Shown here: positions 2,842 through 62,043 of the stretch, piece after piece
How positions within the stretch are numbered: the stretch's first letter is position 1
How the letters are laid out: every line of letters starts with the position of its first letter
DNA from: Podarcis cretensis
Lineage: Eukaryota
Direction of reading: 5' to 3'
DNA length: 64,000 nucleotides
NCBI GenBank assembly: GCA_951804945.1
Contig: OX638153.1
Span: 98,952,001-99,016,000 of the forward strand
The notes under the pieces: model-generated
Told to the model about the DNA's origin: nothing
Database searches by the model: none
What the model saw: the letters and a program-made list of their open reading frames with translations, nothing else
Position numbers and translations under genes: made by a program

Positions 2842-3059
2842 CAAAGGAGAGGCTCTTCTCTGTGTTCCAACACAGGCCAAGGTAAAATTCCTGGGGATGT
2901 TCAACAGGGCCTTTTCTGTGGCCATGCCACACTTAAGAAAACCATCAGTCTGGTTTCTGTGCCTGCAAAGTGGGCATGGCCACAGAAAAGGCCCTGTTGA
3001 ACATCCCCAGGAATTTTACCTTGGCCTGTGTTGGAACACAGAGAAGAGCCTCTCCTTTG
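2842..3059. repeat. Perfect inverted duplication, 87-bp arms (2842-2928 / 2973-3059), 44-bp spacer
   Basis: Arms are exact reverse complements; the ORF track shows the same peptide (KGEALLCVPTQAKVKFLGMFNRAFSVAMP) on both strands. Confidence 0.95.
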
Positions 3060-20591: not shown

Positions 20592-23500
20592 GAAAATGAC
20601 TCTAAAGTTGGGGGTCCCAAACAAGGCACTCCTTAGCACCATGGCTCCCTGGATTTAATTGTTGTTTTTGCTTTTTGTTTTAAATGGTGCTTTGGACAGT
20701 TGCCTTTTTTGCAGGGGTGGGGGAGTTTGCTTTTTGGGGGGTATAGGTGTTTTGCCTGGTTTTGGTTGGGGAGGGATTCAGGTACCCACAACAGTTTCTT
20801 AGATTCTCAAGTGTGCCCCTGGGCCCCCCAAATTTGGGGCCTTGTTTTGGGATCTCTACTCTGTTGTATTGTTCATGGTATGGGCAATGGCAGAACCTTT
20901 GGAGGTCTTTAAAGGGAGAACAAATACAACGTCTCCAAAGTGTGGCAGACAGGATTCTGCCTTGGTAAGTAACTTTCCTCTCTCTTTTCCTCTCTCTTCC
21001 TTCACGCTCCCTTTTCTGCTTTGCTGCCTGTCCTTAGGGGGGCACAGAGATATCAGCATTATAATAGAAGATCCTGTTGCAGGTTTGGGAGCCAGCACAT
21101 TGCAAACCCCTTCATCAGCATCTTCTGCACTGACTGCAAGGTCTTTGTAAAATAGAAACCCCCTGGTGTCAACCTCAAGAAGCCTCCAACAACTTGAGCA
21201 TTTTGATTTGTAACATTTCTTTTCATCCCATAATGAAGGTTCTTTGGGTGACAAAAGAGTTGTTTTTTTAAACTATTCTTGTTGGCCCATTGTTGGTTAC
21301 TGGGCTGAAAGGTGAGGAAGCTCAGAGGTCTACCTGCCTAGTTTTTAAGGTGTGGTAGGAAGGAGATTCATTCCTGGTGGCTTTTGGCCTGAATTCAGGG
21401 CACTATGTACATACAGGCCTTCCTTATTTGAAGCTACCTGGTGCTACTCAATGTGTGGGTTCTTGTGAAAGGGTCTTGGGGGAGTGTTTTGTGTCCTGCA
21501 GAGTTTGCAGTTCACCATTTTGACCCAAGAAGCCACCATTGCTCAGTTTTTTGGCATGCTCTGAGATGTCCAAGTGCAAAGATCATGGCTTTCCTCTTCT
21601 TGGTGCAACCCATATGGCAAAACTTTTTGATAAAGAGATTTTGGTCTGCATTCGGAGCTTTGTCAAAATTGGTTATGATGCCAAAAGTGTCAATTTATAG
21701 AGTGGTTCTATCCAGTCTAAACAGCTCTGCAAGGACTGCCTCATTTGTTGTATTTTTCCTAGATGAGGAAGACTTCCCTGTAGCTTATATTGGGCAGTGA
21801 TATTTCACATTGCATAGCTGTCACATGCGGGTTCTGCATTGCTTCCTACATGGAAGTGCATTTCATATTGAGGGCTGGGCGGGCAGGAATATAACCTATG
21901 AAGTGGCCCTAAATTGGGCCTGATCTTCTGAGCTATTGAAGTTGACACCAGTGTCTCCCTTGCCTTGTTCAACCCTCTCCTTTGCCATTGCATGTTCTGG
22001 ATGTACACACTCTCAAATGTTGATTTCCCTCCATCACCTTCTTTCCATGCCATTATCAGCTGGGATAAAGCACTAAAACCAGCTGCCGTCCCGTTCAGCC
22101 TTTGTTGCCCCTGGAACTTCAGTTGTTGGGGGAGGTCAAGCCCACGCTCTGGCCCAAGTGATGCAAGCCTTTCCCTATAGTAGCTGTTTCTCAGAGGTTG
22201 CCTTGTTCCTAAACTTGAAATCTAGGTCAGGACAGACTTCTGTGTGTGGTCAGGAAGCTGGAGAACGGCCGCTGTGGACAAGGCCTTGTGACCTGGTCCA
22301 GAGTTTCAGCAGTGACTTCATAGGAATGTTTCAAGAAGGGATAACCACCATAGTATGTAAGTTGATTTTATAGTGGTGCAACAGTCTAAGAAACAAGGAT
22401 AGTTACATTAAAAAAACCAAAAAAACTGAATTATCCAGGTGAAATGTAACTGATGGTCACGCTTCTCTTTCTGTATTGGCATAACCCTCCTCCTCAATGC
22501 CAAGGCTAGATAAAAAGATCTTGAGCTTTTGAGCTGTGCTTTGCCTTTGAGTCTCCAAGGGTAGCAAGAGGCGGGAATTACTGGTAGGCACTGGTGATCC
22601 CCAGGAACATTTAGTTTCAGAAATGGTAATGTGACGTGGCCATGTGGGTGAAGGTGGTCCCTGGTAGTTGAGCTCAAACCATTCAGCACTTTATAGATGT
22701 AAAACAGCATAGTTTAATTGTTCGCCAAGGATTCAGTGCATATTTTGGAGCAGCCTTCATAGTACTGTAAGTAGCTGAAGCTTCTGGAGAATCATCAAGC
22801 CAAGCTTTGCAACAGAGTGCTTTACGGTGGTCTCACAGAAAAGCTTTTATTATGGCACTCAGTAGACAACAACTTGCCTATGTTTGCCTCGGGGAGGGAT
22901 GGGGAACCTGTCAGGTGCTGCTGAACTCCCAACATCCCTAATCATGGATCAGGCTAGCAGAGGCTGATGGAAGCTGGTCTCCTAAATACACTGGAGGGCC
23001 ACAGGTTAAATTGGGATACTGAACCTGACTCTCTCCAAGATCCAATCCTGATATCTATTGGCACCAGTTGTGAAGACAGATCTAGACTAGCTTGTTAGAA
23101 TACCCCCCTGCTTGAACACATGCATGATTTCTGCTACTGTCCATGAAAGTTCACCCCTCAGCCTGCCTGCCTTCAATGGTTCCTTCTGGGCTCCTGTTTG
23201 CCCAAATGTTCCCGCACCTTCCATCTTGTTGACTTTATTTTTTTCATGTATTTCACGATGTATCACTTTGTCCCATTTAATTCTGTTCATGCCCTGCCCT
23301 GTGGCTCGTTCTGATCATGGCGATTGACTCCATCTTTCTTTATATTATCCCTAGAGTCCAGTGGAGACATTTCCAGGTTTCAAGGCAGCATGTCCCGCTC
23401 AATGCAGAGCAGCCAGATGAGCACCCCTGGATCTGTTTACATGGAATACGGTGAGCACTGTAGGGCTTTCGTTGGGTTATTTTTTGCCTGTTGGAGTTGG

Positions 23501-26500
23501 GCATCAGCATGGTGTGTGAGCCTTTTCCGGTTTTTGATGCAGGTTTTTGCTAAGAGCTGTGCCCCTCCAGCTTCAAATGGCCTTCAGCAGGGGTAGCCAA
23601 TGTGGTGCACCCCCCATTTGTCATTAGACTACAACTCCCATCACCCCTGGCCATTTGCCATGCTGGCTGGAGCTGATGGAAGTTGGAGTCCAACAAAATC
23701 TGGAAGGTACCACATTGGCTACCCAAGGCCTGTTGACGACAGAGAAGCAGGAGCTAGAGCCAGCACAGACCTTGCGAGGTTTTCCAAATGACTTTGCATC
23801 TTCCACCGTTCCCAAAGGATTCTGACTGCCCTAGTCCTGCGTGAGCCACCCCTTGACAAAGTTCATAGGAATGGAACAGTAATTTTCCTTTAACTTTTCT
23901 TTCTCCATCAGATACCGGGCAGTATCTAAGCTCTGGGGAAGGGATGTTCCGGAGGCCCTCAGAAGGCCAGTCCCTGATAAGTTACTTGTCAGAGCAAGAT
24001 TTTGGCAGCTGTGCAGACTTGGAAAAGGTAGGCAATAGGAGAAGTGAAATGTGAGATTAGCAGGGAGCTTGCATGAAATAGTGAGAGAAAAAACACAGAG
24101 AGCAGTGACTCCCAGGTTATATGGCCAGTGCCTGGGCGGGTGTGTAGCTGCCTGGGAACCATATATATGCTTGGGGTCTCTTGCTTGTCTAAGATGACAG
24201 GAATGTCTTTGGCACTCAATTATTTCAGGCAGTATCAATTCCTTACACCTCATAAGATTCCTGAGAGGGTGAGGAAGGGCTGCAGACCATCTCGGTCATC
24301 TGATCCCCAAGGCCTTTCTATTCCTGTTAGGTCGATAAGCGGGCTGAGGTCCAGCAGTATTGAAATGTAAGCTAGAGAGAGAGGATAGTGATCACTTTCT
24401 TTGTGGTCCAAAGTATCTATTTATGTGATACAGGCAATTAAGCGAAGGGCTGACAATAAAATAATCAACACTAGCCCCCAAGTTAGCAGTGTTTTAAACA
24501 TGCGCTCTTTTTAAGGATCCTCGTGAAAAATATTTCTCAGAGTTTAATGTCGGGAATAATTTTATTTCTGTTGGTTTGTTTTCTGAGAACTATGTGATCT
24601 GTGTGTTTCCTAATTTGCATTGGCAGACAGGAAACTTAACTTTGTGGCTCACTTTTGATTGTTCCATTTGTTTTTGTTATGACATTGAGCTAAACAGCAA
24701 AATGATTACTAATGCGGTTGATAGACAAGTTCTGGCCTTGGCAATTTTTTTTAATGCAACATTTAAAAACTCGCTCCCCCAACCATAAGGGCTAAAAAAA
24801 TATTTGCTTGCTGCATTTCCACCAACCCACAGATTTCTGTGCGCATCCATATTCTACAACAGTGTAGATTTTGCACACGGCTGCCAAAGTTTTTTTTTTT
24901 TTTTTTTTTTTTTACCGGGCTTGAGTATTGAAAGATATTTAGACTGTCATGCTACCTGCCCCCCCCCACCCCCCTCAAACCCATTGTCTCTTTCTCGAGA
25001 GAACTTCTCCCTCCTTTTGAGTCTTGTGCAAAACTTAACGCTGCTGCTTCTCCTCTTCCCTTCACCCCAGGAAAATGCTCACTTCAGCATCTGCGAGTCG
25101 CTCATTGCTGCCATTGAGCTGATGAAGTGCAACATGACGAACAGGCAGCTGGAAGAGGAGGAGGAGGACAGTGACAAGGAGATCCAGGAGCTCAAACAGA
25201 AAATCCGCATCCGCCGACAACAGATCAGGACGCGGCACCTGCACCCAGCATACCCGGAGATCAGCTCAGACAGTGGGTGCTTCCTTCCAGCTCTTCCTTT
25301 TGCTGTGTTGAAAGCTTCTTTGGGGATTTAAGTGACTGTGGATCCCTGAGGCTATTTCCGAGGGTGCAGATCCCGGATAGTGCCACAGCTTGATATCCTC
25401 TTGCCAAAGAAACCTTTATTCTTGTGCCAATTCAGCAAGATTAATGAATGGCCTTCTGCTTCTTATCATGTCAGAGCATGAATGAATTGCACTGAAGCTT
25501 TCCTTCCTGACCCCCTGGAAGTGCGGTTCAATCCGGGTGTTGTTTTTCAGGATCTATCCTTGGTAGAAGCTGGCAACGAAAAGGAGATAGAAATGAGACT
25601 CCTGGGGCGAGGGGGGGGGGCGACTAATGTCTATGTTCCATACCAAATTCCACCCTAGTGTAGTGCAGATTACGGCTTTGTTTGTGTGTGCAGCATCTGA
25701 GGATCACAAAACACCTAGAGGGTTTTAGCCTTGTCTTTTAGTTTTGTCATAGGAGTCAATGGCTGGAGCAGGAAGTGGCTGGAGGAGGAAGTGGACTGCT
25801 GGAAATCTAACTCTCCCCCACTCAGGGCATCCTTGCTTCCTTCATCTCCTTTTTAAAGAAGTCAGCAAGGAGGCTCATGGTAACAGATTCATGTGAATGA
25901 GGACGAAAGGAGGCAGTCTGATAAGATGGAAAAAGCTTTATGTGCATTTCAGGCAGAAAGAGGAACTTTTTTCTCTGGGACTTACTCAGAAGGGACTGGT
26001 CAACCCAAGCAAGCAAGAAGACCTATACATGGGCCATGCTGATCTTGTACTCTGCAAGTTTATCCCTACACTCAGCTGGCACTTAAGTTGAGCTCTGTCC
26101 TGTTGCAATAGAAATAAACATTGGGTCCCTCCTGGATGCTGGATTTGAGAATAGTTTCCTTAGTTCTGTGGTTTATTTAAAAGGTGGTTTCGCACTTGGG
26201 TAACAAACAAAGTGGTGTAGAAGTGAATTCTTACCACATGTGTATCCTGGATTACCCCCAGAAGGAGCTGTTTTGGATAATAATAATAATACATTATTTA
26301 TACCCCGCCCATCTGGCTGAGTTTCCCCAGCCACTCTAGGCAGCTTCCAATCGAGTGTTAAAAACAAAATAGCATTAAATATTAAAAACTACCCTAAACA
26401 GGGCTGCCTTCAGATGTCTTTTAAAGAGAAGATAGCTGCTTATTTCCTTCACATCTGAAGGGATGGAGTTCCACAGGGCGGGTGCCACTACAGAGAAGGC

Positions 26501-29500
26501 CCTCTGTCTGGTTCCCTGTAACCTCACTTCTCGCAATGAGGGGACCGCCAGAAGGCCCTCGGCGCTGGATCTCAGTGTCCGGGCTGAACGATGGGGGTGG
26601 AGACGCTCCTTCAGGTATACAGGACCAAGGTATACAGGATCCAAACCAATAGAGCTTATGTGGTTGTCTAAGGGTGTGTGTCGGGACGCGGGTGGCGCTG
26701 TGGGTTAAAGCCTCAGCGCCTAGGACTTGCCGATCGAAAGGTCGGCGGTTCGAATCCCTGCGGCGGGGTGCGCTCCCGCTGCTCGGTCCCAGCGCCTGCC
26801 AACCTAGCAGTTCGAAAGCACCTCCGGGTGCAAGTAGATAAATAGGGACCGCTTACCAGCGGGAAGGTAAACGGCGTTTCCGTGTGCGGCTCTGGCTCGC
26901 CAGAGCAGCGATGTCACGCTGGCCACGTGACCCGGAAGTGTCTCCGGACAGCGCTGGCCCCTGGCCTCTTAAGTGAGATGGGCGCACAACCCCAGAGTCT
27001 GTCAAGACTGGCCCGTACGGGCAGGGGTACCTTTACCTTTACCTTTAAGGGTGTGTGTGTATTTAGTTTGGCTTATTGTCTTGAGGGCTGCCTGATTATT
27101 AGGATGTGTATCAGTTGTGAAATGGGCAAGTGTCAAATCATTAGCATACTTCATTAACATGCAGGTATTTATTAAAAAGATGGCCCTAAGTTTTTGTGCT
27201 TCTGGTTTATCTGTATTTATAGTCTCAGCATAAGAGGTTCTGTGAATTATTTGAGAGCTCCTAGTTAACCCACAGGCACTTCCTTTCCTTTTGATCACGC
27301 AAAACTCATCAATGAGGTGACTTGAGTGAAGAGAGAGAACTTTCTCCTGCAACTTCTATGATTCCTTTTTAAAACACCTACATCTTTACTGAGCATTGTG
27401 CACAGATTTTAAAAGAAGGCAGTCCTTGCCTACAGGAACTAATAGACATGGTACAAGAGGCAAAAGGGACGGAGAAGGAAATAAGTGAAGTCATGTACTG
27501 CTGCTTACTGTGCTTAATGGCCAGCTTGAATTAATGTACTGGCCAGGGGTGATGGGAAATGTAGTCCAAAGCATGGAGGGTGCCAGGCTGGCCAAGGCTG
27601 AACCAGACAGATTCTGATGTGCACTGCAGTCTTTCTTTTTCTACCACTGTTCTCCCAGGTCTTATGGCAACAGACAGTGGATCCCACTTCAGCTCCCGGG
27701 ACTCGACACACTTGTCTGACTCAGGTTCAGCAGAAGAGGTTGACGAGTATGAGATTAGAGGTAAGATGTAATTGGTATAATGAGCCTTATGCATACGAAG
27801 CTCCCTTATACTGGGACAGTTGGTCCATCTGACCCAAGATTGTTTGCCCAAGTTGACAGTAGCTCTCCAAGGTCCTTGGCAAAAATGCTTCCAGGCACAA
27901 GTCCGAGATCCTTTTTAACTGCAGATTTCAGGGACCGAACCTGGCACCTTCTCAGCAGGACTCTGTGTGCGACTCTGAAGACAATAATCTTTGCCTGCAT
28001 TGTCCAGCTCTTAAAATGGGAGTGACACAGTTCTCTAGTATCAGAACAGTGGGCCCAACAGGAATGGAAAAGCACACACTATGGGCCTTGGGAGGATAAT
28101 TGTGATTATCATTTGCTAGTCTGTCAGCTTGAAACTGTCCTTGCTGATCGGTCCTTCCAGTGAAAATGCAAATTTGAAGGCTGTTGTTACAGTGGGGGGA
28201 GACTTGCCCATGCTTGCTTATTCCAACATGAAACTTACTGTTTGAACCCCCTCCAAAGGCATGTTCACATGGCAGAATCGGGCTGGCTTTTGAAAGGAAG
28301 GATCAGTTCCGAATTTTAAAAATGGGAAGTGTAGAGGAGGTACTTGCACTTGGAACAGCCAAAGCTAGTTGTGCAGAGTGCAGGATCAGTCCCAGTGCAC
28401 ATATTACCAGGGCTGGAGACCACAGTGTGTGTGGAGTTTGGCCATTAGGGAAGTGAGGCAATCCTTATTCTGTCTGTACATGATTACCCTGCTCCTGCCA
28501 AAGAAGAGCATGGCAGAGAAACCAGCCCAGCAAACAGCCTTACAAAAGTTGACTAGAGTAGCCTGGGTGATGCTCCCTAACCCCTGTGGAAGCTTCCTAG
28601 TCAAGTTTGTTCCCCGTCAAACTTTTTAAGAGAGATCAGAGAAACAAAAGTAAATATCTACCTTTTTTGGGGCATCAGCCACAAAACATTGCTGGTTTGA
28701 AACTTGGAAACTCACTTTGAAGCAAGGAATAGCTAAGCAGCCAAGACCCAGAGGAGCAGTTGTGCGGGTGGCCTGGCTGTGCTTGGAATACTGTGTGTTG
28801 GGGTGAGGGAGGAGGGGAAAGGATCAAGAGCTCAGAGTTGGTGGGATCTTCTGAACCCCATAATTCAGTGATTTTCAAACTCTATCCTGTGGAATTCTGG
28901 GACTCCCCAGAAGCCTCTTAGAGGCTCCCCAATGAAGTCAGCTTGCACCAGCAAGGAGGGGGTGTCAATTGCATTATCTGGTGCATTTTGGATTACAGTG
29001 GGGGCCTGGCCAGTACCCTATGTGTGTGTGTGTGCGCACACAGCTATGCTCCAGAATAATTTGTGATGTGCAAGGGTTACTTGGCAGACAAATTTGACAT
29101 GGAAAGAATTCCCTCAGGGTAGAAAATTTGAAAGCCACTGGTCTGGTTTGAAGGGCCCTGTGCTATTGGGAGTCTCTCCTATCCTTGCTCTGGTTGTGCT
29201 TACACCCTCTTTCCCCCCTTCTTCCGCTGACATGCAATATTTTGTCATCACCGTATAATGCAGATGGTAACGATGGATCTAACCTGACTCAAATATCCAA
29301 GAACGGCCTGTCTGTCTCAATGGCTTCCTTGTTTTCAGGTAGTAACTTCGCTCTGTGTGTGTCCGTCTGTCTGTGTCACGTGGGCACAACTAGTTAGATC
29401 ACCCTTGGGGTGTATTGCATGTCATGCCTTAGGTGCTGACCTGTAGTGTTTGCATGTTACAGAATTCCCTCCCTCCCTTCTATAAAAGGTAAAGGTACCC

Positions 29501-32500
29501 CTGCCCGTACGGGCCAGTCTTGACAGACTCTGGGGTTGTGCGCCCATCTCACTTAAGAGGCCAGGGGCCAGCGCTGTCCGGAGACACTTCCGGGTGATGT
29601 GGCCAGCGTGACATCGCTGCTCTGGCAAGCCAGAGCCGCACACGGAAACGCCGTTTACCTTCCCGCTGGTAAGCGGTCCCTATTTATCTACTTGCACCCG
29701 GAGGTGCTTTCGAACTGCTAGGTTGGCAGGCGCTGGGACCGAGCAGCGGGAGCGCACCCCGCCACAGGGATTCGAACCGCCGACCTTTCGATCGGCAAGC
29801 CCTAGGCGCTGAGGCTTTAACCCACAGCGCCACCTGCGTCCCTTTCCTCCCTTCTATAGTCAATGTATATTTCCACCTTTTGGTGCTAAGAATATAAACA
29901 GAGGTGAGAGCAAAACAAAGCAAAATCCATATGGGCCAAAGTCTGGTCTAAACCAGGCGGTTTTGACAAAGCAGCAAAAACCTATCAGTTGTACAACATC
30001 CATGGCCCCACTGTGGGAGGGACATTTCTGTTACAATCTATCTAGGACTTCCTGAGCCCTTTCTTTTGCAGTCCACTGAAGGCTACAAAAGCAGGGATAT
30101 CAAATGCAAACTGTCATATTTTGACTGGCATAGTGACCAGTTTGAACTGTGTTCTCTCTCTCTCTCTCTCTCTCTCTCATACACACACACACACACACAC
30201 ACACATTCTTGAGTGACTAACACATCATAACCAACTTATTTCCCTGTGTGTGTGTTTTGTCGGGTAAGGTAAACAGCTAGCAGCTCCTTCCCTGCATGGC
30301 TTATAAGCTTTCCATTTTACCCCACGGTAGTCTTGTTCACTTCCTACGGTTCTCGCTCTCTTAGCTGCTTGCTAGTGTTGATAGAAGGATTAGGCCAGTG
30401 TGAGCAACTGTGGCTAGCAAAACTTTTAGGGGACCTTTTAAGAATTGACAGACCAGGTTGGATTGATGGCCTTTCTGCCAATGGTGGACAACTAGGTGCC
30501 CTGTGGAAGTTTACAAGCAGGGCCTGATTGTGATCTTCCACATCATAGATAAATAACCCACAATATCTAGCAGTCTGTAACTCCTCCTCTCTGAAATGGG
30601 GGCCGTCAATAGCCACTGCCTTTTAGTTATATAAAGTGTAGTTGCTTTTTAAAGCCATTCGTTATAACAGCCCCCCACAGAATTCTGTCAAAATGGGGTG
30701 GTAGATGATGTTAGGTGAGGGAATATGTGGCTTAAACTGGGGAGCAACCTACTCATGTTCTGATGGGAGAACCCACCTATCAAGTCATGCCTTGGGAGTT
30801 TTGTGTGAACAAAGCGTCTCTTCCTTCCTGGTATGTGCCAACAGGCTCAGGAACTGAGGCCACCTTGGAGGTCTCTGTAGCCGTCTCTCTTCCTAATGGG
30901 AAGGATGCAAACAGCTACGAACCAATGCCTCATGTTTCCAACCAGGCACAAATTGGGGTGGAGAGGATCAGATAAAATTGGGTTAGATGCCAGATGTGGC
31001 TTGTGTTTACTTTAGTCTTAGAAACCTCGAACGCAGGCTCTGACACCCTTCTTGACGTGCTTTCTGTGGATGGTGCAGAAAGTGGGCAGACTTTGAAGTG
31101 GTCCATTGTGAGAAGGCCTTGGCCCATAGGTGAATTTGCCCATCTCTGCTGTAGATGAGTTCCTTGTTGTAAAATTGCGATATGTGTTAACCCATCCAGA
31201 ATCTGTTCGGCATGGCCTTTGCCACGTCTAACCTTCCCCCGCTTCATTTGTGCTGTGATTTAGATGCAGACATCAAGAGGAGTGCAGCTCCCAGCAAGAA
31301 GTCCTTCCACTCCTCAGGCTCCACGTATGTATCTCTGATGTAGCATAAGAACACCATGATGGCTCAGTGAAACACTGGGAAGATTTAGGCTGAAAGGTTG
31401 AAGAAGGGACAATTGGGCGACAAATTTAAGAAAGCTCTAAACAGGCTTCTTCTCTTAGTAATATATCTGAAGTAGAATCTGTGCCATTTGGGAGCCATTT
31501 CTGGTAGTATCAGGGCCAAGAAATGACAAGGATTTAAAGCTCTGCATCTGGGTTGGCTTTCCAGTGTGAAGGAATGGTTGAGGACCAGATTGCAGGTCAC
31601 TGAGGTTCTGGCTAGGCTGAGTCTCGCGGATGGTGGCAGCATACTGCCTCCAGGGGCAGGTTCCAAGTAGATAAAAGCAACTAGGTTCGAGCCAGAAATG
31701 GTGGTTTATTGCTTCTGTGCCAAGAGAGGTGTCAAAAGGTGCCAGCTTGGGTCTTCAGTGGAGACTAACCAAGAGGCTGCTTCCACAGGCAGAGGCACGA
31801 CTGATAGGAGCATCTGTTTTAGCTCCTCCAACTGGCCGTGTCTATATTTTGGTTGGGACATGGGCAGAAATAACAAATGAGGGCTAGATGTGAGAAAGTG
31901 CAGTAAAGTGTCCTTAGGACACTTTTAAGTGAGGCAGAAACAGGGGGAGCCAGATCTTCACTCTGCAGACGTTGCTGGATGACAATTTCCACTGCTCCTG
32001 GGCCAGTTGGGCATGCTGACTGGGGCTGAAGGGATTGGGGAGTTGAGCAATTTCTGGAGCCACGGGTTTCCTGTCCCTGCAGTAAGAGACGAAGAGTGAG
32101 GAATTAAGCACAGGGCTTTGTGGGACCTGTAGGGTTTCAAGATGAACGTTAAGGGGGGATGTACAGGAGAGACCTCCTTTCCTGCTGCTTTGTATCTGTG
32201 CTAATCTCCGCTGCTTTGTCCAACAGCTTCCACTCTTTCCTCAACTCCAACTCGGCGGAGGCTGTGGCCATGGGCCTGCTGAAGCAGTTTGAAGGGATGC
32301 AGCTCCCCGCAGCTTCCGAACTGGAATGGCTTGTGCCGGAGCAAGACGCCCCGCAGAAGGTAGGCTTCCTGAGTTCAGCACCCGCCTACCCTGGGCCAGA
32401 ACAGCACAGTCATTTTGTGCTGTGCCCCCCCCCCTTCCCCTCTCTAGTGGTGGTTTAAACTTAGCCACTTTATGGCGGTGGGCAGCAAACACTTAATGTG

Positions 32501-46062: not shown

Positions 46063-46217
46063 TTACTTGGAGAACTTTTGAGGGCTGTACTTGCGCTCAA
46101 ACTGGTCCACGTCAAACTTCCTCTTGCAGCCAGCATAGTTCATGTAGCGGATCTTGCCAAACACAGCCCGCTCTGCCCAGCCTTGGTCGTGGATCCCACA
46201 GATAGACCACATACAGC
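46063..46217 (-). CDS. phr: Photolyase last coding exon ([37 protein letters not shown]...KFSK*)
   Basis: catcag acceptor; TAA at 46065-46063. Confidence 0.96.
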
Positions 46218-49200
46218 CTGATGGGAGGAAAAAAGAACAAACGGGTCTCTGCTTTTGCATTCTTCCTCCCTCCTTTCTCTGCAGAAACAGACACAGACAC
46301 AGGTCTGGTGTTTCCAGCTCCGCAGGGGGTTGGACTAGATTGGCTCTTGGGGCCCGTTGCAACCCTATGACTCTATGATACAACCACCCAGCCTCTTCCC
46401 ATGACTGACCTACGTATCCATTGGGGTCCCTGCCATCCAGTTCATAGCGGTCATTAAGGTAGATGGAGAATTTCAGGGCCTCTTCTGGCGAAGTGGTCCA
46501 CTCCAATATTTTCTTGGCCCAATACATCCTCAGGAAGCCGTGCATCTTCCCTTCATGAACCATCTGGAGCTGAAGCACAGGGATGGAAAGGTGGATGAGC
46601 TACGGATGAGGCCTTCTTGGGAAGTGCCACCCGCCCTGCGGAATGCCATCCCATCAGATGTCAAAGAGATAAACCATCATATGACTTCCTGTATCAGGAA
46701 GCTTTTGATGTTTTGGTGTGTTCTTGGAAGCCACCCAGAGTGGCTGGGAATGTGTTTATGGAACCAAAGGGGTGGTGGCCCAAAAAACTGGGGCGCACTG
46801 GTTTAGATAAAAGGTGAGTAAAGGGGGGACTCTATGGGTATCCCATAGGGGCAGCTGGTTGGCCATGGTGAGAAGGAAGTTCTTCATCACCTCTTTCTGC
46901 TCCATCACTATTGTTCACACACCCTTCAATAGCAGTTTCCAGAGTGGGATACAACAGTTTTAAATTCAGAATCAAAAAGAGTTAAAACTCATGACAGTCA
47001 CAGGAATGAAGTGGGGCCCTATGCTCTTAACCCCACAAGCAGGAAATAAAAACAACTGTACACATTCAGAAATGGCCCTTCAGAAGGTAGCCTGCCACTG
47101 AACGTTTAGTTAGTATGGTTAAACAGACATTTTTTCAATCCCCCTTTATTTTTATTTATATATATATAATTTTTTATTAAATTTTCTGTTTCAGAATTTA
47201 AAATACTCATTTAAACATCCTTAAAATATCAACGACATCCCTTCTTCTCTTTCCATGGTTCATTTTACATATCATAAATCCCTTCAGTATTCCATTATTA
47301 CACCCGTCAAAACTTATTTACACTGCTGAATTTATATTAATGCTGCCAACGTTTTCAAGTGTACACAATTATTTCCCATATATTCACTAAACGTTTTCCA
47401 ATCTTCTCTAAGCGTATGTTCTTCTTGTTCTCTTATTCTGTGTGTAAAATCTGCAAGCTGCGCATGTTCTGTCAACTTTAGTTGCCATTCTTCTTTAGTT
47501 GGGACCTTGCTAGTTTTCCATTTTGGGGCTAACGAAACACGCGCCACAGTAGTGGCACACATAAGTAACTTTTTTTGACACCTGGGAATTTCCATCCCTA
47601 ATCCCCCTTTAAAGCCATCTAATCCAGTGGCCATCACAACATCCGGTGGCAGAGATTTGTACCACTTAACAAGGTAGCATGTAACTTTTCCATTCCGATC
47701 GAGCTGCTGCTCCAAAGAGTTTTAGCATTATTGGAGAGGGAGATGCAGATCTCCAAGCACGCGACAGACACGTGCTCGGAAGCCAGCACATGCCCATCCA
47801 AAAACAGGTCCTCACACACCTTTGGAGTTTAGGTTTACCTGCGCAGCATTCCAGAGAGGGTCGTGCGTCTTTCCTGCCTCCAGCTGTTCCATTGTGTATA
47901 GGTAAGGTCGCTTGTCTTTGGCATGCAGCTTCAGCGTAGTCTTGGCCCAGTCGTAAGCCCCTTTGGATGGTATAAGGCATAAAAGATTATGGTTAAAAAG
48001 TAATTGAGCCCTATTAAAATGCAGTATTATCATAAAGGTAAAAAGGTACAGGACCCCTGGACGGTTAAGTCCAGTCAAAGGCAGCTATGGGGTTGCAGCA
48101 CTCATCTTGCTTTCAGGCCAAGGGAGCCGGCGTTTGTCCACAGACAGCTTTCTGAATCATGTGGCCAGCAGGACTAAACCGCTTCTGGTGCAACAGGACA
48201 CCGTGATGGAAGCCAGAGCACACAGAAACGCCGTTTACCTTCCCACCGCAGCGGTACCTGTTTATCTACTTGCACTGACGTGCTTTTGAACTGGCAGAAG
48301 CTGGGACAGAGGAACGGGAGCTCACCCCATTGCGCGGATTCAAACCACCGACCTTCTGATCAGCAAGCCCAAGATGCTCAGTGGTTTAGACCACAGCGCC
48401 ACCTGTGTCCCTGCATTATCATATCACACATAAAGGCAAGCGTCGCAGAAGAGGTGTCTTTGCAGAGCAGAGAAAGGCGAAACAGGTGTTAAAGACAATT
48501 ATGAAAAATGTTGGTCTGAAATTAAAAGGGATCTAGATGTTTGGTCAAGATTGAAACTTTCCTTGACAGGACGTATTGCTGCTATTAAGATGAATGTATT
48601 GCCAAAAATGTTGTTTTTGTTTCAAACTTTGCAGATTGTGGACAAAATGGAGTGTTTTGGGAGGTGGCAGAGAGATATTTCAAAATTTGTCTGGCAGGGC
48701 AAAAAGCCCAGAATTAAGTTTAAGATATTAACTGATGCTAAAGAAAGAGGGGGCTTTGCCCTGCCAGACCTAAAGTTGTATTATGAATCAGCAGCTTTCT
48801 GCTGGTTGAAAGACTGGCTACTTCTTGAGAACACTGATGTTTTAGATTTGGAAGGATTCAACAATGCGTTTGGTTGGCATGCATATCTGTGGTATGACAA
48901 GGCTAAAATACATAAGACTTTCAAGAACCATGTTGTCAGAAAAGCAGTATTTAATGTCTGGCTGAAATATAAAGACTTATTGGAAAACAAGACCCCAAGG
49001 TGGTTATCACCAATGGAGGCTAAGGCCCTGAAAAAACTCAATATGGAGGCCAAATGGCCAAAATATTGGGAAATAATAGAAAAAGATGGAGATAACTGGA
49101 GGTTGCAGAGTATGGAGAAAATAAAAGATAAAGTGCGAGATTGGCTACATTATGCTCAGATTAAAGAAGTTTTTAAGTTGGACAAAAAGATAGGATTCCA

Positions 49201-52200
49201 GGTGGAAAAATCAAAGTTAGAAACAGAACTGTTAGAACCCAGCTCTAAGATACTTTCAAGAATGTATAACTTGCTGTTAAAATGGAATACACAGGATGAA
49301 ACGGTCAAATCAGCCATGATAAAATGGGCACAGGACATAGGGTACAACATCATGTTTGCTGACTGGGAAAAGTTATGGACCACAGGTTTGAGATTTACGG
49401 CATGTAATGCCTTGAAAGAAAATATTATGAAAATGATATACAGGTGGTACATGACTCCAGTCAAGCTTGCAAAGATATACCATGTGTCTGATAATAAATG
49501 TTGGAAGTGTAAAGAAGCTGAAGGAACATTCTTTCACCTCTGGTGGACTTGCCCTAGAGTGAAGGTTTTCTGGGAAATGATTTATAATGAACTGAAAAAG
49601 GTATTTAAGTATACCTTCCTTAAGAAACCAGAGGCCTTTCTCTTAGGCATTGTTGGTCAGAGCGTGCAAAAGAAGGATCGAACCTTTTTTATGTATGCTA
49701 CAACAGCAGCAAGGATACTCATCGCTAAAAGCTGGAAAACTCAAGAATTACCCACACTGGAAGAATGGCAGATGCAACTGATAGACTATATGGAACTGGC
49801 GGAGATGACTGGCAGAATCCGAGACCTGGGAGAAGAACTGGTGGAGGAAGACTGGAAGAAATTTAAGGATTATCTACAAAAATATTGTAAATTGTATGAA
49901 TGTTAAGAAAGATGTAAGATTAGCAAAAACATGGCTTCAACAAACTAGTTATAAAGAATATAAATTTAAATTTAATTGGAAGATGAAAAGATAAATTTTG
50001 GATAAGTAATATTTTATGATTAAGTTTCAATAAGAGTATGTTAAACCCCAAAATTTGAGATATTAATATTGGAAAATTATATTATATGAATTAAACCAAG
50101 TTAATAATTTGCTGGTAAAATTTATGAGTTTAGAAAGCAGGAACAAGGGTTGTGAGGAAGTCCAAAGATGAGTATGAAATGTGGATATTGGAAAAGATTG
50201 TGTTATTATCTATGTATTTTATTGTTAAACTAAAATTTAATAAATATTTTTTTTTTAAAAAAAAGAAAGGCGAAACAGGTGAGCCCATTTACCTTCCACC
50301 TTGTCATAGTTTGGGTTGTAGTAGCAGAAATTGTCCGCCAGCTCCCTCCGCACCACGGCCTCTTCAATGAAGGCTTCTGCCGATTCCTTGTACCGGCTAC
50401 GGAGCTTGCGAACCTCCAGGATCGCTCTCTGTACAGAGATCTGACCTGTGGGAGGGCAGTTACTGTTCAGTGGGCTTCAGAGATCTTTGGAACTTGCAAG
50501 AGAGACTCTACTGCAGGCCACAGCAATCTTCTGGGGGTTCCCTCCCTGCGAGAAGTGAGGTTGCAGGGAACCAGAGAGAGGGCCTTCTCGGTAGTGATGC
50601 CTGCCCTGTGAAATGCCCTCCCATCAGATGTCAAGGAAATAAACAACTATCTGACTTTCAGAAGACATTTGAAGGCAGCCCTGTTTAGGGAAGTTTTTAA
50701 TGCTTGATGTTTTATCGTGTTTTTAATTTTCTGTTGGGAGCCGCCCAGAGTGGCTGGGGAAACCCAGCCAGATGGGCGGGGTATAAATAAATTCATTATT
50801 CTTATTCTATTTATTAATTACTAGGTGCCTAAGGGGTCTCTCTCAAGTAACCTGGTCTTGAGCTGTACAATTGCCATCTTCGTAGTCAAGATAATGCCAC
50901 TATTAATTGGTAGTTGTAACGACGAGCTCATATATGCTTATATTCATGTGCATTGATATAAGCTAATTGGCTTGCTTTTAAAGTTCTGCTTATCTGTGGG
51001 GTTTGGGGTGCTGGGCTCTGAGCCCAGAAAGGAGAATTATCTGTAAGATTTGGGTACCTGCCACCTGTGCCCTCATGTGGGCAGGTGAAGCGATGGGAAG
51101 GCCTGGCCAAAGGGACGTATTCTGCTTGGTGTATAAAGAATGAATGAAGGGTTCCTTAGGTATGGACAAGCCATCTCCTTGCTACCATGTCCGTTCTATG
51201 TCTGCAAAGGCTGGGATAACGGGCAGGCTGGCTTGCTCTAACGGATCACTCTGGCATCTTTGACATCCTTCTTTGGTACCCCTGCTCCCAAATACTCCCA
51301 CAATACTCCCTCCTTTGGGGCAGCAAACCAGGGCAACAGGGCCACAGATGTTGGTACCCAAACCTTGAATTTGCCCAGTAGCAAACTGGCAGCCAGAATA
51401 GAACTAGCAAGCAAGGTGTTACATGCTGGCGGTGGTTTGCCCCACAGCCAACCTAGCAGCCTCCGTATCATAGCCCAAGGGTAGCCCCACATGGAGCACA
51501 CTGCAGTAATCAAAACATCTAGAAGGCCACAACCCTAAATAGTTTTGCAGTCCCCCTCTGCTCCTCCCGTCACAGCACAATTTCTAATACCAACGCAGAT
51601 CTCTTTCAGATTCCACTGCTTCTTCTAAAGGCTGCTACCAACCCTGAACGTTTTTGGGCAGAGTGGACAGCTGATTGGGAACCCACTCAGGGTTTGGCCA
51701 CCCCTGAACCCCCCAAGGGTTTGACCCAGGCCTTGCAGAGGACCAGCTCCCCACTCACCAAAGTGGAACCAGGGCGAGAGGTTGCTCAGAGCCGCCCGGT
51801 TGGGATTGTTCCTGTCTGTGCCAAAGAACTTCAGGCGGTCCTCGATGAACTCTTCCAGCACCGCCAGGCCGGCAGCTGTCCCTGGCTGCGCCCAGGTCAC
51901 CTCCTTCACGGAGCGGTCGACCTGCAGGCTGGCATAGCAGGCGTCCCAGTCAACAGGCTGCAGAGTCAGAAAAGGAAGAGGGGTAAAAGCCGGCAGCAAG
52001 GAGCAGCAATCCAGGCCAAGGACGTTCCAGCAATCCTTAACATCCCAGAGCTCACGGGAGCGTGGGCATCATTCGGCTTTTCATTTATCTTATTTTTATT
52101 TCATTTCTTAAATTCATGCACCGCTTTAATGTTATAGGCCTCGAAGCAGTCTACAAAGAATAAAATAATAAAAATGACCAGACATGCTTACCCAAACACA

Positions 52201-55200: not shown

Positions 55201-58200
55201 CACTGCCCTGCAGCTCTGCCCAGATCACACCCCAGCTGCCAGACTCCAGGCCTCCCTACCTGGACAAAGGGCACATCAGGTGGCAGCCTCGCCTGGACAT
55301 CTTGCACCCACTGCATGGGGACGCGGAGGGGGGCGAAGTCCGTCACCACCCCGCCAATGCCGTGGGTCGTCACAAAGGGGGGCAGCACGTCCTTTGCGAA
55401 GCCGATGAGCAGGTGGAACGGGATGCTTAGTTCCCTGCATTCCTAGGAGAGACGAAAAGGAAGCAGAGAATATTTGGTCACACAGAAAGCTCGTGATATC
55501 GACTCATAGATTACCAGTTAGTCTAACTCAGTATTTACCACACTGGCTGGCAGCAGCTCTCCAAGGTTTCAGGTAGGGGACACCTCCTGGGCCTACCTGG
55601 AGAGGCCGGGGGCTGAACCTGGAACCTTCTGCATGCAACGCATATGCTCCCCCACTGAGTATCTAAAAGATACAAGTTTCTAATCCTCATTGTTTTGAAC
55701 GAAGGGTGAATTTGAATAGGAAGCCGGTTACATTATAAGCTGCCTTATACTAGACCAGTGGTCCCTCTTGTCGAGTATTGTCAACACTGACTGGCAGTGA
55801 CTCTCTAGGTTTTCAAACAGGGGTCATTCCCAACTCTACCTGGAGATACCAGGGTTTGAATCTGGGACCTTCTGCATCCCAAGCACATGCTCTTCCACTG
55901 ACTATGGTGTCCATCAAAAAGGAACAAAGTTCCAGCAGGTACAGATTTTTAGTTGCACACATAAATACAAGCCTGTGTCATATCTTGGCTATGAGTGCAA
56001 CTATTCAGGTACCAATTGTTTCTTTTAAGTCTGTCTCACTGCCGCAGTCATGCACCGGCCCAGCAACACAAGTAAAGGTAAAGGAAAAGGGACCCCTGAT
56101 CATCAGGTCCAGTCGTGACCGACTCTGGGGTTGCGGTGCTCATCTCGCTTTATTGGCCGAGGGAGCCGGCATACAGCTTCCGGGTCATGTGGCCAGCAGG
56201 ACTAAGCCACTTCTGGCAAACCAGAGCAGCGCAAGGAAAAGCCGTTTACCTTCCCGCCGGAACGGTACCTATTTATCTACTTGCACTTTGATGGGCTTTT
56301 GAACTGCTAGGTTGGCAGGAGCAGGGACCGAGCAATGGGAGCTCACCCCGTTGCAGGGATCTGAACCGCTGACCTTCTGATCGGCAAGTCCTAGGCTCAG
56401 TGGTTTAACCCACAGCGCCACCCCCCCACCCCCCGAATAAAACCCCAGCTTTTCCAAAGCTCTCCTAGGTTTCCCAGATGGAAAGTGTAAGTCATCCCCC
56501 CCGCCCCATCAAAAAAGTGAAGTTGGCACACTTCACCAACACCCACCAAAAGGCTGACTTAGCGTGCAAAAGAATAAGAGCACAGAAATATTTCTGCTGC
56601 AAGAGGAGTCCCACCCGTGCGCTTCTGCACAAGTCTCTGTTCTGAGTACTCCCCTCGACCGGAAAGACGAAAACCCAGAGTGCTGCCTCTTTCACTGACC
56701 CAAAAATCAATTTTCTTTGGAGAATGGGTTGCTCTGCCGGGTAAGTGAACGATCCAGTCACACCTGACGCAGAGACCCAAGACAAAAGGCCAGAGCAGTT
56801 CATCATGCAGAGCTGTTGTGGGAAGACTCCTCTGCCTACAGCTGCTTTGGGCTCGCAGGCTATTTACAGCATCCAGTAATATCCAAGGCAACACGATGAC
56901 CAAGTACAACAATGCAATATCAATATAAACTCTTTATATAATCTATACGGAACATTGAATGATATGAAAAACCAAATAAACAGAAATCTTATAAATCTCT
57001 GAAAGTCACAAAATGGATTCTCCTGAAAACATAGGACCAAATAAACATACCGGTAAGTCTTATAAGTCTCTGAAAGTCTTTGTAGACTATGCAAGGCTCT
57101 GAGAGAAGCAAGGGGCCAGATTCTTATCTGATGAAAACAAGCCATAAAGCTTTGTTTTATGACGTTTAATGCTGCCGAAGTGGTCCGCAAACAGACGTAG
57201 TGAACAGTGATTCCGGATATACCCACTGTTTCATAGAATTCTTCTTTAGCACAGCAGAAGGATACAGAAATGCTTCATAAACCCATCTATATGGTGAATG
57301 TATAGTTAAAGCTATGGTTAAACCCATCTATATGGTGAATGTATAGTTAAAGCTATGGTTTTCCCAGTAGTGATGTATGAAAGTGAGAGCTGGACCATAA
57401 AGAAGGCTGATCGCCAAAGAGTGGATGCTTTTGAATTATGGTGCTGGAGGAGACTTGAGAGTCCCATGGACTGCAAGAAGATCAAACCTCTCCATTCTTA
57501 AGGAAATCAGCCCTGAGTGCTCACTGGAAGGACAGATCCTGAAGCTGAGGCTCCAATACTTTGTCCACCTCATGAGAAGAGAAGACTCCCTGGAAAAGAC
57601 CCTGATGTTGGGGAAGATGGAGGGCACAAGGAGAAGGGGACGACAGAGGACGAGATGGTTGGACAGTGTTCTGGAAGCTACCAGCATGAGTTTGACCAAA
57701 CTGCGGGAGGCAGTGGAAGACAGAAGTGCCTGGCGTGCTCTGGTCCAGGGGGTCACGAAGAGTCGGACAGGACTAAATGACTAAACAACAATAACAACAA
57801 CATGGTGAATGGAATTGTATAACAACAATATCTATGGAGCAGTGGTCATAAAGTTATGATATTAGATTGTTGTACTTGGTCATCGTGTTCCCTTGGATAT
57901 TACTGATAATTGTTTGCAACATAGGGGTTTAATTGTTTGGTTACTATTTACAGCATCCGGCACGCAGCTGCGAATCTATGACAGCTGGCAGCAGCCTGGT
58001 GCCCTCAGGATATTTTGGATAAAGACTCCCATCAACCTTGCCCACAGGGCATGCTGTCTGCAGTTGATGGGCATTTGGGAAAAAGCTGGTGCGGCAAGGC
58101 TGCTGTGCCCAAATTCATGCTGCAGGTGGCTTGCCCACTAGAACCTCTCCCGGGTCCACAACCACTTCTGACACCGATGCAACACCTTCCCGACACAACG

Positions 58201-60647
58201 CCGGTACCTCGGCCACTTCCTTGAGGCCTCTGATCAGGAAACCGAAATGGCGGATGGTAGCCTCCAGGAACTTGGGCACCAGGCAGAAGCAGACATGAAG
58301 TGGCAACTTCTGCTTCAGGGCCAGTCGCTGGGCATAGAGAAAGGCCCAATTATCTGGGGAGAAAAAGAGCAGGAAAAAGCTTAAAAGAACAGCTCTGCAG
58401 CAGATGGTCAGTGGCTGGGAGTGTAGGGGGCACAAGAGACATGCAGCGTTTGGGCTTCCCCAAGCCTCTGTGCCAGCTTGATGGGCGCAAGTGCCCCAGT
58501 TCTGAAGGCAAGGCAGGGCACCTGGTGGTATACAGTGTGGCTCAGGACTGCAATACCTCAAGGAGCGCCGCTTTCTATATGAACCTCCCCGGACCCTGAG
58601 AACATCTTCTGAGGCCCCCCCTCCTCCTCGAGAGGTCCGGAGGGTGGCAGCACGAGAGCGGGGCCTTCTCTGCAGTGGCTCCTCGTCTGTGGAATGCTTT
58701 CACCAGGGAGGTTCGCCTGGCACCTTCATTATACAATCGTACCTCGGGTTACAGTTGCTTTAGGTTGCGTTTCTTCGGGTTAAAGACGCGCCAAAACCCG
58801 GAAGTACTGGAACGGGTTACTTCTGGGTTTTGGCGGTTGCGCATGTGCAGAAGCACCGAATCGCAACCTGCGCGTGCACAGACGTGCTGCTGCGGGTTAC
58901 GAACATGCCTCCCACATGGATCACGTTCGCAACCCGAGCGTCGACTGTACATCTTTAGGCGCCAGGCAAAAACGTTCTGTTTAACCAGGCCTTTGGCAGA
59001 CCTGATCAACACCCTATAGCCTTTTAAAATGTGGCTCTTTTGGGGGGTTGTTATTAGGTTATTGTTTTTATTTTGATTTTATGTACTGTGATCTTTTTTG
59101 TGAACTGCCCTGATACTTCCGGGTATAGGGCGGTATATAAATTCAACACATAAATAAATAAAAATACAGATTCCCTTCCTCCCCAGGTGGCTGGAGACCT
59201 GTTGCTATTTCTACAGCAGGGTCTCAGAGGGTCCCTATCTCCAGCATTCTAGGGCTGCCCAATCAGCATAAATGGGGGATATTTTTAGTCACCATACAAT
59301 ACGATATCTCTATTGTCACTGTCCCATACAGAACAACGAAATTGAAAAAATCTACACCAGACATTCAAAAACCAACCAGCCTTCTATCCCAGCTATCCCA
59401 GCCTGGTTAGCCCCCTAAAAACTCTGATACCCCATAATTAAATACAATATACTCCAACAGAGACTCTTTACACTGCATTTAAAACCAAAACCGCATTTGG
59501 GTAGAAACTGTTTCTCAGGCGGCTAGTCCTAGTCTTTATAACCCTGGACCTTCTTCCAGAAGGCAGAAGCTGAAAGAGATCATTTCCGGGGTGCGCACTA
59601 TCCTGCACTATCTCTGCAGATTTCTTATGGCACCTGGAAGCGTAGATTTGATCCAAGGTGGGAAGAGTGCACCCAATTATTCTCTCCGCAGTCTTTACAA
59701 CCCTGGACAACACTATTTTCTCCCTGACCGTGCAGCTCCAAAACCACACACACAGACCATAAGTTATGCTCCCAATCTAAACACTGAAAGCGAAGGGTGC
59801 TTCAGCTTCAAAGGAATTCTGTGCAACGTCCGCTCTATACAAGGGAACTTCATAGGAAAGTCACCCAGAAAGCAAGAAATACCGCCAGGCTCCCTTGAAT
59901 CAGCTGCCCCTGATAATCTGTTGTTCTCTTGTGTTTCATACGCATTATAAAACAAAACAAATAAATAAACAAACAAACTTTACAAAAAAAGACACAGTTT
60001 GCACACACACAAAAATTAGATCTAGCCGAAAGGCAACACAGAGAGACCTGCATTAATTACTGCAATGCACCCCTATAATGGTCATTAATGTATAATTGCA
60101 TAATTATAAAATTATTGTGTAACTTGGGAAGGTTGTATAATCTTAGAAGGGGTGTGGCTGTATCAGGAAGCGAGACGGCACTTCTGAATTTGCCACAATG
60201 CAATTGCTTTATACATAGCAAGGATGCTTTTTCCCAGTGTTTTGCCAGCCTTCACCCCCAGCCACTCCATCCCACCAATTACACAGAGGGGAAGAGGAGG
60301 CTGGGGCTGGGGGTGGGGGAAAGGTAAAGGTAAAGGGACCCCTGACCATTAGGTCCAGTCGTGACCGACTCTGGGGTTGCAGCGCTCATCTCACTTTACT
60401 GGCCGAGGAAGCCAGCGTACAGCTTCCGGGTCATGCGGCCAGCATGACTAAGCTGCTTCTGGCGAACCAGAGCAGCGCACGGAAATGCCATCTACCTTCC
60501 CACCAGAACGGTACCTATTTATCTACTTGCACTTTGACATGCTTTCGAACTGCTAGGTTGGCAGGAGCAGGGACCGAGCAATGGGAGCTCACCCCGTTGC
60601 GGGGATTCGAACCACCGACCTTCTGATCGGCAAGTCCTAGGCTCTGC

Positions 60648-60691
<44 letters not shown>

Positions 60692-61992
60692 TTATTTGTA
60701 ACCTACCCATCTGGCCGGATTTCCCCAGCCGCTCTGGGTGGCTTCCAACGAAATATTAAAAATACAATAAAGCATCAAACATTAAAAGCTTCCCTAAACA
60801 GGGCTGCCTTCAGATGGCTTCTAAATGTCAGATAGTTGTTTATTGCCTTGACATCTGCTGGGAGGGCGTTCCACAGGGCGGGTGCCACCACCGAGAAGGC
60901 CCTCTGCCTGGTTCCCTGTAACTTCGCTTCTCGCAGGGAGGGAACCACCAGAAGGCCCTCGGAGCTGGACCTCAGTGTCTAACCAACTACAAGTAGTGAA
61001 CTGTTGGTGCTCTAATTTTACTGCAAATATCAATACAAAATAAAAAAAATTCCTTCCAGTAGCACCTTAAGGACCAACTAAGGTGAGGTTGATGGACTTC
61101 CATTTCATGCGGCTCAGTGTGGTGCCTTCCATAGTTCCAGTTACAGATAGGATGGATGGCGGCTAACAGATTGAGGTTGAATCCTGACAAGACAGAAGTA
61201 CTGTTTTTGGGGGACAGGAGGCGGGCAGGTGTGGAGGATTCCCTGATCCTGAATGGGGTAACTGTGCCCCTGAAGGACCAGGTGCGCAGCCTGGGAGTCA
61301 TTTTGGACTCACAGCTGTCCATGGAGGCACAGGTCAAATCTGTGTCCAGGGCAGCTGTTTACCAGCTCCATCTGGTACGTAGGCTGAGACCCTACCTGCC
61401 TGCAGACTGTCTCACCAGAGTGGTGCATGCTCTGGTTATCTCCCGCTTGGACTACTGCAATGCACTCTACGTGGGGCTACCTTTGAAGGTGACCCGGAAA
61501 CTACAACTAATCCAGAATGCGGCAGCTAGACTGGTGACTGGGAGCGGCCACTAAGACCACATAACACCAGTCTTGAAATACCTACATTGGCTCCCAGTAC
61601 GTTTCTGAGCACAATTCAAAGTGTTGGTGCTGACCTTTAAAGCCCTAAATGGCCTCGGTCCAGTATACCTGAAGGAGCGTCTCCTCCCCATCGTTCTGCC
61701 CGGACACTGAGGTCCAGCTCCGAGGGCCTTCTGGCGGTTCCCTCACTGCGAGAGGTCAAGTTACAGGGAACCAGGCAGAGGGCCTTCTCGGTAGTGGCGC
61801 CCACCCTGTGGAATGCCCTCCCATCAGATGTCAAAGCAATAAACAACTACCTGACATTCAGAAGACATCTGAAGGCAGCCCTGTTCAGGGAAGTTTTTAA
61901 TATGTGACATTTTAGTGTATTTTTCATCCTTGTTGGAAGCCGCCCAGAGTGGCTGGGGAAACCCAGCCAGATGGGCGGGGTACAAATAATAA

Positions 61993-62043
<51 letters not shown>

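What the first reader, a model, noticed from the sequence alone, without database searches (positions are those of the whole stretch)
26683..29842. Young inverted Sauria SINE pair brackets two RUBCN exons: candidate circRNA with an endless 59-codon ORF
Seen: two full-length SINEs, each with its own 13-bp TSD, in opposite orientation 2.4 kb apart and differing at only ~6 of ~357 nt. They enclose exactly exons 27659-27760 (102 nt) and 29264-29338 (75 nt), both phase 1-1. Established: inverted intronic SINE pairs (e.g. primate Alu) pair in pre-mRNA and promote back-splicing, exon skipping and ADAR A-to-I editing. Inference: a 177-nt circle would join ...TCA G|GT CTT ATG G..., giving an AUG and no in-frame stop (repeat unit [59 protein letters not shown]), a possible rolling-circle template. 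The reciprocal linear mRNA would be an in-frame Rubicon lacking 59 aa just after the coiled coil. This would be a recent, lineage-specific, SINE-created switch on an autophagy inhibitor.
Basis: partly seen in the sequence, partly recalled or inferred. Interest (0 to 1): 0.72.

Follow-up and report, generated by a model that had tools for sequence, protein, structure and literature searches.

The report
Polymorphic SINE pair around RUBCN exons
Two near-identical young jumping-element copies face each other across two exons of a lizard's autophagy gene RUBCN and likely pair in the RNA, but hundreds of such pairs are expected by chance in this genome, one copy appears absent in another individual, and no circular RNA or exon skipping was shown.

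Summary
The anatomy is real: two full-length Sauria/Squam1-type SINEs (26682-27045 +, 29485-29845 -), 6/358 mismatches, separate 13-bp TSDs, around RUBCN exons 27659-27760 and 29264-29338 (phase 1-1). It is what chance gives. The subfamily has 22,517-29,226 exact-match copies in this genome, unrelated copies are as alike as these two, and about 350 tail-to-tail pairs within 2.5 kb are expected. The 'endless ORF' is the ordinary RUBCN frame: 7 of 17 two-exon circles of this gene have one with an ATG, and the proposed AUG is Met in only 62 of 170 homologues. The 75-nt exon is an old cassette exon in lizards and birds; the 102-nt exon is kept in 165 of 165 informative proteins. New here: contigs of a second individual carry the upstream SINE but run through an empty site at the downstream one, and a related species lacks both. 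The pair is therefore likely an unfixed insertion polymorphism, not an established switch. Duplex formation, editing and trace back-splicing in carriers are plausible by analogy with Alu pairs but untested: no usable RNA from a carrier was available. Low interest, with modest value as a natural experiment.

The parts
26682..27045 (+). SINE copy A, full length Sauria/Squam1 type (A box 26693, B box 26747, (ACCTTT)n tail)
   Evidence: present in run X2 (contig enters the tail to 27025), absent in run X8 of organism D
26669..26681 (+). 5' TSD of copy A (repeated at 27046-27058)
27046..27058 (+). 3' TSD of copy A
27659..27760 (+). RUBCN exon 'b', 102 nt, phase 1-1, constitutive in all informative homologues
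29264..29338 (+). RUBCN exon 'c', 75 nt, phase 1-1, old cassette exon (in or out in lizards and birds)
29472..29484 (-). 3' TSD of copy B (repeated at 29846-29858)
29485..29845 (-). SINE copy B, full length, inverted relative to A; likely a polymorphic insertion
   Evidence: empty site inferred in runs X2 and X8
29846..29858 (-). 5' TSD of copy B
25071..25272 (+). upstream RUBCN exon 'a' (acidic/basic coiled-coil-like segment), donor of the hypothetical skip
31264..31324 (+). downstream RUBCN exon 'd', acceptor of the hypothetical skip

Best explanation
Two independent insertions of a very young, very abundant Sauria/Squam1-type SINE subfamily sit in opposite orientation in the introns around two RUBCN exons; the downstream copy is likely still polymorphic, and in carriers the copies likely pair in the pre-mRNA and would yield at most ADAR editing and trace back-splicing or skipping as a by-product, not a selected switch. 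Shown: anatomy, abundance, independence, duplex stability in silico, age of the cassette exon. Inferred from contig geometry: empty site of copy B in another individual, both sites empty in a related species. Inferred by analogy with mammals: pairing in vivo, editing, low-level circle.
For: Abundance and chance expectation. Independence: different TSDs; A and B share no derived letter against the column majority of 26 other copies, and 94 of 325 pairs of those copies differ by 6/358 or less. Not fixed: in run X2 an unbroken 2095-nt contig at full depth passes 29484 and continues 316 letters that do not fit the SINE tail; 316 letters from the end of the TSD reach 30174, inside the (CT)12 run at 30154-30177 where a contig would stop; run X8 gives 318 letters there and 68 letters at copy A. 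Endless ORF is common: 20 of 51 one- to three-exon circles, 19 with ATG; 14% of human circRNAs in PMC9242994 (passages). Exon c splicing predates the SINEs: skipped in 17 of 63 squamate isoform records and in most bird records. By-product model: PMC8516420 (abstract and passages).
Against: The geometry is favourable for an effect: predicted duplex -833 kcal/mol against -167 and -160 for the copies alone, 613 nt from the acceptor and 146 nt from the donor, and no competing copy of this family inside the gene. One new Alu pairing with an old one does change splicing and phenotype at TBXT (PMC10901737, abstract), and inverted Alu pairs are enriched around skippable exons (PMC13019027 passages; PMC13019944 abstract). 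The empty site rests on one individual and on contig lengths, not on read letters. The protein records are annotation models from genomes not known to carry the pair, so they cannot exclude skipping in carriers.
Confidence: 0.78

Rival explanations
1. Copy B is a segregating splicing modifier: in carriers the duplex loops out exons b and c strongly enough to give a measurable 59-aa-deleted Rubicon and a 177-nt circle, as the new Alu does at TBXT.
For: Near-perfect 358-bp duplex close to both splice sites with no competitor in the gene; in-frame skip; exon c is already alternatively spliced; precedents PMC10901737, PMC13019027, PMC13019944. The deleted residues 553-610 lie inside the Pfam PI3K-binding domain span 480-713.
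Against: Exon b has consensus-like splice sites (long pyrimidine tract, GAG/gtaaga) and is kept in 165 of 165 informative proteins. PMC13019027 finds very many inverted pairs around constitutive exons too and only a small energy difference between skippable and constitutive sets. No RNA evidence.
Confidence: 0.13
2. One reading: the circle is made, translated by rolling circle from the AUG of exon b, and works as a SINE-created switch on autophagy.
For: Stop-free frame with two in-frame ATGs; rolling-circle translation of coding-only circles is documented (PMC9242994 passages); the second Met is conserved in 58 of 58 proteins that include exon c.
Against: The frame is the host reading frame and such circles are common; first AUG not conserved and both ATGs have a pyrimidine at -3; products are mostly scarce and rapidly degraded; copy B appears unfixed.
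Confidence: 0.02
3. The pair has no effect on RNA at all: splicing of the short introns is finished, or each SINE folds on itself, before the duplex forms.
For: Each copy folds stably on its own; co-transcriptional splicing competes with pairing (own knowledge).
Against: The duplex is about 500 kcal/mol more stable than the two self-folds together; SINE hyper-editing is documented in a lizard (8,663 sites in SINEs, PMC5625713 passages).
Confidence: 0.05
4. The near identity reflects local duplication or gene conversion between the two copies, or an assembly artefact.
For: 98.3% identity at 2.4 kb.
Against: Different TSDs; no shared derived letters; 13 of 30 copies from another contig match A over 327 nt or more at 98.3% or better; the locus is single in G000.
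Confidence: 0.02

Closest known systems
Inverted young-SINE pairs flanking circRNA exons in mammals (Alu, B1, ID, opossum SINE1; PMC8516420)
   Same: Recently active, species-specific SINEs in opposite orientation in the introns flanking coding exons; predicted to pair and favour back-splicing as a by-product.
   Different: Squamate SINE; no circle demonstrated here; one partner appears polymorphic.
Alu loop-out exon skipping: TBXT exon 6 (PMC10901737) and genome-wide surveys (PMC13019027, PMC13019944)
   Same: A new insertion completes an inverted pair around an in-frame skippable unit.
   Different: TBXT is fixed, shown by deletion and has a phenotype; here two exons, one constitutive, nothing shown, not fixed.
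Rolling-circle ORF (rcORF) circRNAs (PMC9242994)
   Same: Length a multiple of three, host frame, no stop.
   Different: No evidence that the circle exists or is translated.
Sauria/Squam1 SINE (Sauria_POM type) of lacertids (PMC10670947, PMC10058329, PMC13295347)
   Same: About 360 bp, A and B boxes, (ACCTTT)n tail, TSD starting with T; tens of thousands of loci differ between two Podarcis species.
   Different: Not aligned to a published consensus here; subfamily not named.

Membership tests
Sauria/Squam1 SINE | about 360 bp with Pol III A and B boxes | tested here: met
   364 and 361 nt between TSDs; TGGCGCTGTGG at 26693, GGTTCGAATCC at 26747; feature from PMC10058329 passages; box patterns recalled
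Sauria/Squam1 SINE | 3' tail (ACCTTT)n | tested here: met
   feature from PMC13295347
Sauria/Squam1 SINE | TSD beginning with T (then A), T stretch about 10 nt upstream | tested here: inconclusive
   both TSDs begin TA in element sense; a clear upstream T stretch is weak at A and missing at B
Sauria/Squam1 SINE | high copy number in lacertids | tested here: met
   22,517 and 29,226 exact matches; published 65,000-131,000 per lacertid genome
Sauria/Squam1 SINE | sequence identity to the published consensus and Bov-B-derived 3' part | not testable with these tools
   supplement with the consensus could not be read; no repeat library on hand
repeat-driven exonic circRNA | reverse-complementary repeats in both flanking introns | tested here: met
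repeat-driven exonic circRNA | back-splice junction reads, RNase R resistant | tested here: inconclusive
   only RNA of an organism lacking both SINEs, at depth 0-4
repeat-driven exonic circRNA | dependence on the repeat pair | not testable with these tools
   needs carriers against non-carriers or a minigene
loop-out exon skipping (TBXT type) | isoform lacking the enclosed exons | tested here: inconclusive
   0 of 165 proteins with exon d lack exon b, but none is known to come from a carrier of the pair
rolling-circle translated circRNA | stop-free frame around the circle | tested here: met
   common in this gene
rolling-circle translated circRNA | junction peptide or ribosome footprints | not testable with these tools
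   no proteomic or ribosome data

The most novel reading that the evidence does not exclude
Copy B is a still-segregating SINE insertion that, by completing a near-perfect duplex with copy A, makes carriers skip a normally constitutive RUBCN exon and produce a 59-aa-deleted Rubicon plus a 177-nt circle: a TBXT-like splicing change caught before fixation in a reptile, and one of some hundred such loci created by an ongoing SINE burst.
Probability: 0.12. Interest if true: 0.55.

Novelty: new member of a known kind. Interest (0 to 1): 0.2.

Why it matters
As a single locus it matters little: the layout is well known from mammals and expected hundreds of times in this genome. Its value is practical. 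If copy B segregates, carriers and non-carriers are a natural with/without control for whether a near-perfect reptilian SINE duplex changes splicing, and the deletion would fall inside Rubicon's PI3K-binding domain span. The wider point is that a burst of more than 20,000 near-identical SINE copies should create many new intronic duplexes in this lineage; my searches for circRNA or editing work on lizard SINE pairs listed no paper devoted to that, apart from a cross-species editing survey that includes a lizard.

Tried and rejected
No RNA holder listed for this stretch; not used as evidence. Raw RNA of organism D: run X23 (about 12% read) covers exons b and c at depth 2-4, run X21 not at all; no back-splice joint among the 15 rows shown, 33 rows hidden, and organism D lacks both SINEs, so this says nothing on the hypothesis. 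The status of the two SINEs in samples S1 and S3 of organism A and in organisms B, C and E was not obtained, so allele frequency and the age of copy A remain open. DNA search of G000 with the whole SINE returned nothing because common words are skipped; exact patterns were counted instead. A 35-mer that includes copy A's minority letter at 26690 gave only 208 hits and is not a measure of subfamily size. Rfam: 0 matches at E<=1 over 26600-29950. 925-aa lacertid isoforms, 59 aa shorter than the 984-aa ones, looked like the predicted skip but keep both exons. Three proteins scoring negative for exon b end or read into the intron after exon a. Gene conversion or local duplication rejected. The overhang arithmetic started 3 nt late and is replaced. 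Literature search for a RUBCN circRNA: 0 occurrences of 'circRUBCN' among the 20 listed of 67 papers (listing only). Mapping the p22phox-binding region onto these exons failed: the passages read give no residue numbers. Earlier-findings look-ups by words and by relatives were empty.
Full report
Observation. The inverted repeat is present: arms 26683-27040 and 29485-29842, 358 nt, 98% complementary, 2444 nt apart, with 6 mismatches. Each copy has its own 13-bp target-site duplication: 26669-26681/27046-27058 and 29472-29484/29846-29858. Both have the head, A and B boxes and (ACCTTT)n tail described for Sauria/Squam1 SINEs (PMC10058329 and PMC13295347, passages). I could not align them to a published consensus because that supplement was unreadable, so the family name rests on these features. 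The host gene is RUBCN of a lacertid lizard: the exon-a peptide is 100% identical to a Podarcis lilfordi protein carrying RUN, PI3K-binding and Rubicon-homology domains. Spliced mapping gives 20 coding exons with one terminal stop; exactly two lie between the SINEs, 27659-27760 and 29264-29338, both phase 1-1. The 177-nt circle has one stop-free frame with the quoted 59-residue unit and the a-to-d skip is in frame.

Is it more than chance? No. A 32-mer from the SINE's 3' end occurs exactly 29,226 times in G000 (14,769 forward, 14,457 reverse, reversed-pattern control 0) and a 34-mer from its 5' end 22,517 times. Uniform placement predicts about 354 tail-to-tail pairs within 2.5 kb and as many head-to-head; among the first 100 listed copies (5 Mb of contig C1) there are 2 tail-to-tail, 1 head-to-head and 3 same-strand pairs within 2.5 kb. 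With a recalled figure of about 200,000 coding exons, 25-30% of such intervals would hold an exon, so of the order of 100 or more loci should look like this one. The identity is ordinary too. Of 30 copies fetched, 26 were kept (4 dropped as truncated or more than 12% divergent; all were chosen by the exact 32-mer, which favours young copies); 94 of their 325 pairs differ by 6/358 or less, and A and B differ from the column majority at 2 and 4 positions with none shared. They are independent insertions, not a converted or duplicated pair. An earlier unchecked note describes a similar layout with another element elsewhere in this genome.

Age and fixation. Laying public runs on 26995-29535 gave contig geometry at both insertion sites. 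Run X8 (organism D, a relative): one contig starts to fit at 27046, the first base of the TSD, after 68 letters that do not fit the SINE tail; another stops fitting at 29484 and continues for 318 letters. Run X2 (organism A, 5 differences in the two long contigs of 512 and 1779 aligned letters): one contig enters the tail of copy A to 27025, so A is present; but an unbroken 2095-nt contig at depth 83, the full depth, passes 29484 and continues for 316 letters unlike the SINE tail. Counted from the end of the TSD, 316 and 318 letters reach 30174 and 30176, inside the (CT)12 run at 30154-30177 where an assembly graph would break. I infer that D lacks both copies and that the X2 individual lacks copy B on both chromosomes. 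This is inference from lengths in one individual; the overhanging letters were not displayed, and other samples were not obtained. It fits the published scale of presence/absence differences for this SINE between two Podarcis species (19,914 and 31,580 loci; PMC10670947, passages and tables).

The exons. Among 120 homologues, 21 have both exons, 96 have only exon b and 3 end or read into the intron after exon a. Among 63 squamate isoform records, 46 have both, 17 skip exon c, none skips exon b. Over all 174 proteins fetched, 165 have exon d and all 165 keep exon b. Exon c is thus an old cassette exon and the phase symmetry long predates the SINEs. These are annotation models, none known to come from a carrier of the pair, so they do not exclude skipping in carriers. 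The 59 residues (553-610 of a 984-aa isoform) are Ser/Asp/Glu/Gly/Thr-rich and lie inside the Pfam PI3K-binding domain span 480-713. A review places a serine-rich, p22phox-binding region after the coiled coil (PMC9604520, passages); that it is this segment is my inference.

The endless ORF. Any run of coding exons with equal phases gives a stop-free circle in the host frame. In this gene 7 of 18 single-exon, 7 of 17 two-exon and 6 of 16 three-exon circles are stop-free, 19 of the 20 with an ATG. In human, 14% of circRNAs have such a host-frame rolling-circle ORF and most products are scarce and quickly degraded (PMC9242994, abstract and passages). The proposed AUG is Met in 62 of 170 homologues, Val in 68, Leu in 36, Val in six isoform records of a close lacertid, and has C at -3. 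Nothing marks it as a selected start.

Mechanism. Shown in silico: a duplex of -833 kcal/mol against self-folds of -167 and -160, 613 nt upstream of the exon b acceptor and 146 nt downstream of the exon c donor, with the only other copies of the family in the window 76-80% identical and outside the gene. Inferred: in carriers the pre-mRNA likely forms this duplex and is edited (SINE hyper-editing is recorded in a lizard; PMC5625713, passages), and likely yields a little circle or skipping. PMC8516420 (abstract and passages) finds circRNAs tied to young species-specific SINE dimers and reads them as by-products. Against dismissing it: TBXT shows that one new inverted copy can matter (PMC10901737, abstract), and inverted Alu pairs are enriched around skippable exons (PMC13019027, passages; PMC13019944, abstract), although the first of these also finds very many pairs around constitutive exons. 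No RNA of a carrier was available, so circle, skip and editing are neither shown nor refuted.

Verdict. Real feature, known kind, expected by chance, probably unfixed. About 78% neutral by-product with at most trace effects, 13% measurable splicing modifier in carriers, 2% translated functional circle. Interest 0.2; the likely polymorphism makes it an easy test case, which is its main merit.

Noticed in passing
G000 genome-wide; window 26683-27040: This SINE subfamily has more than 22,000 copies with exact 32-34-nt matches, several within 2 letters of copy A over 358 nt: a very recent, probably ongoing burst that should create many new intronic duplexes.
   Followed up: partly
window 46063-46599 (-): Exons of a DNA photolyase gene on the minus strand downstream of RUBCN; best solved-structure match E 4e-48. 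Other exons appear to run to about 62700.
   Followed up: partly
window 60648-60979 and 61703-62033: A second inverted repeat pair of another family (90% complementary, about 720 nt apart, TAA-repeat ends), apparently within the photolyase gene region; not checked for an enclosed exon.
   Followed up: no
window 2842-3059: Perfect 87-nt inverted repeat with a 44-nt spacer, a 218-nt hairpin with little else between the arms; origin unexplained, could be a MITE-like remnant, a local inversion-duplication or an assembly artefact.
   Followed up: no
window 56874-57905: 49-nt terminal inverted repeats, 94% complementary, about 1 kb apart, beginning CAGT: resembles a non-autonomous DNA transposon (family recalled, not tested).
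   Followed up: no
window 48434-49906 (+): 490-codon stop-free frame resembling the C-terminal part of a LINE ORF2 (recalled resemblance; no Pfam match), with a shorter related piece at 62573-63097.
   Followed up: partly
window 48042-48411, 56074-56423, 60320-60646: Three older copies of the same SINE family, 76-80% identical to copy A, outside RUBCN.
   Followed up: partly
window 29264-29338: The 75-nt cassette exon is strongly conserved at the protein level from lizards to birds and is alternatively included in most species with several isoforms; its function may be more interesting than the SINE pair.
   Followed up: partly
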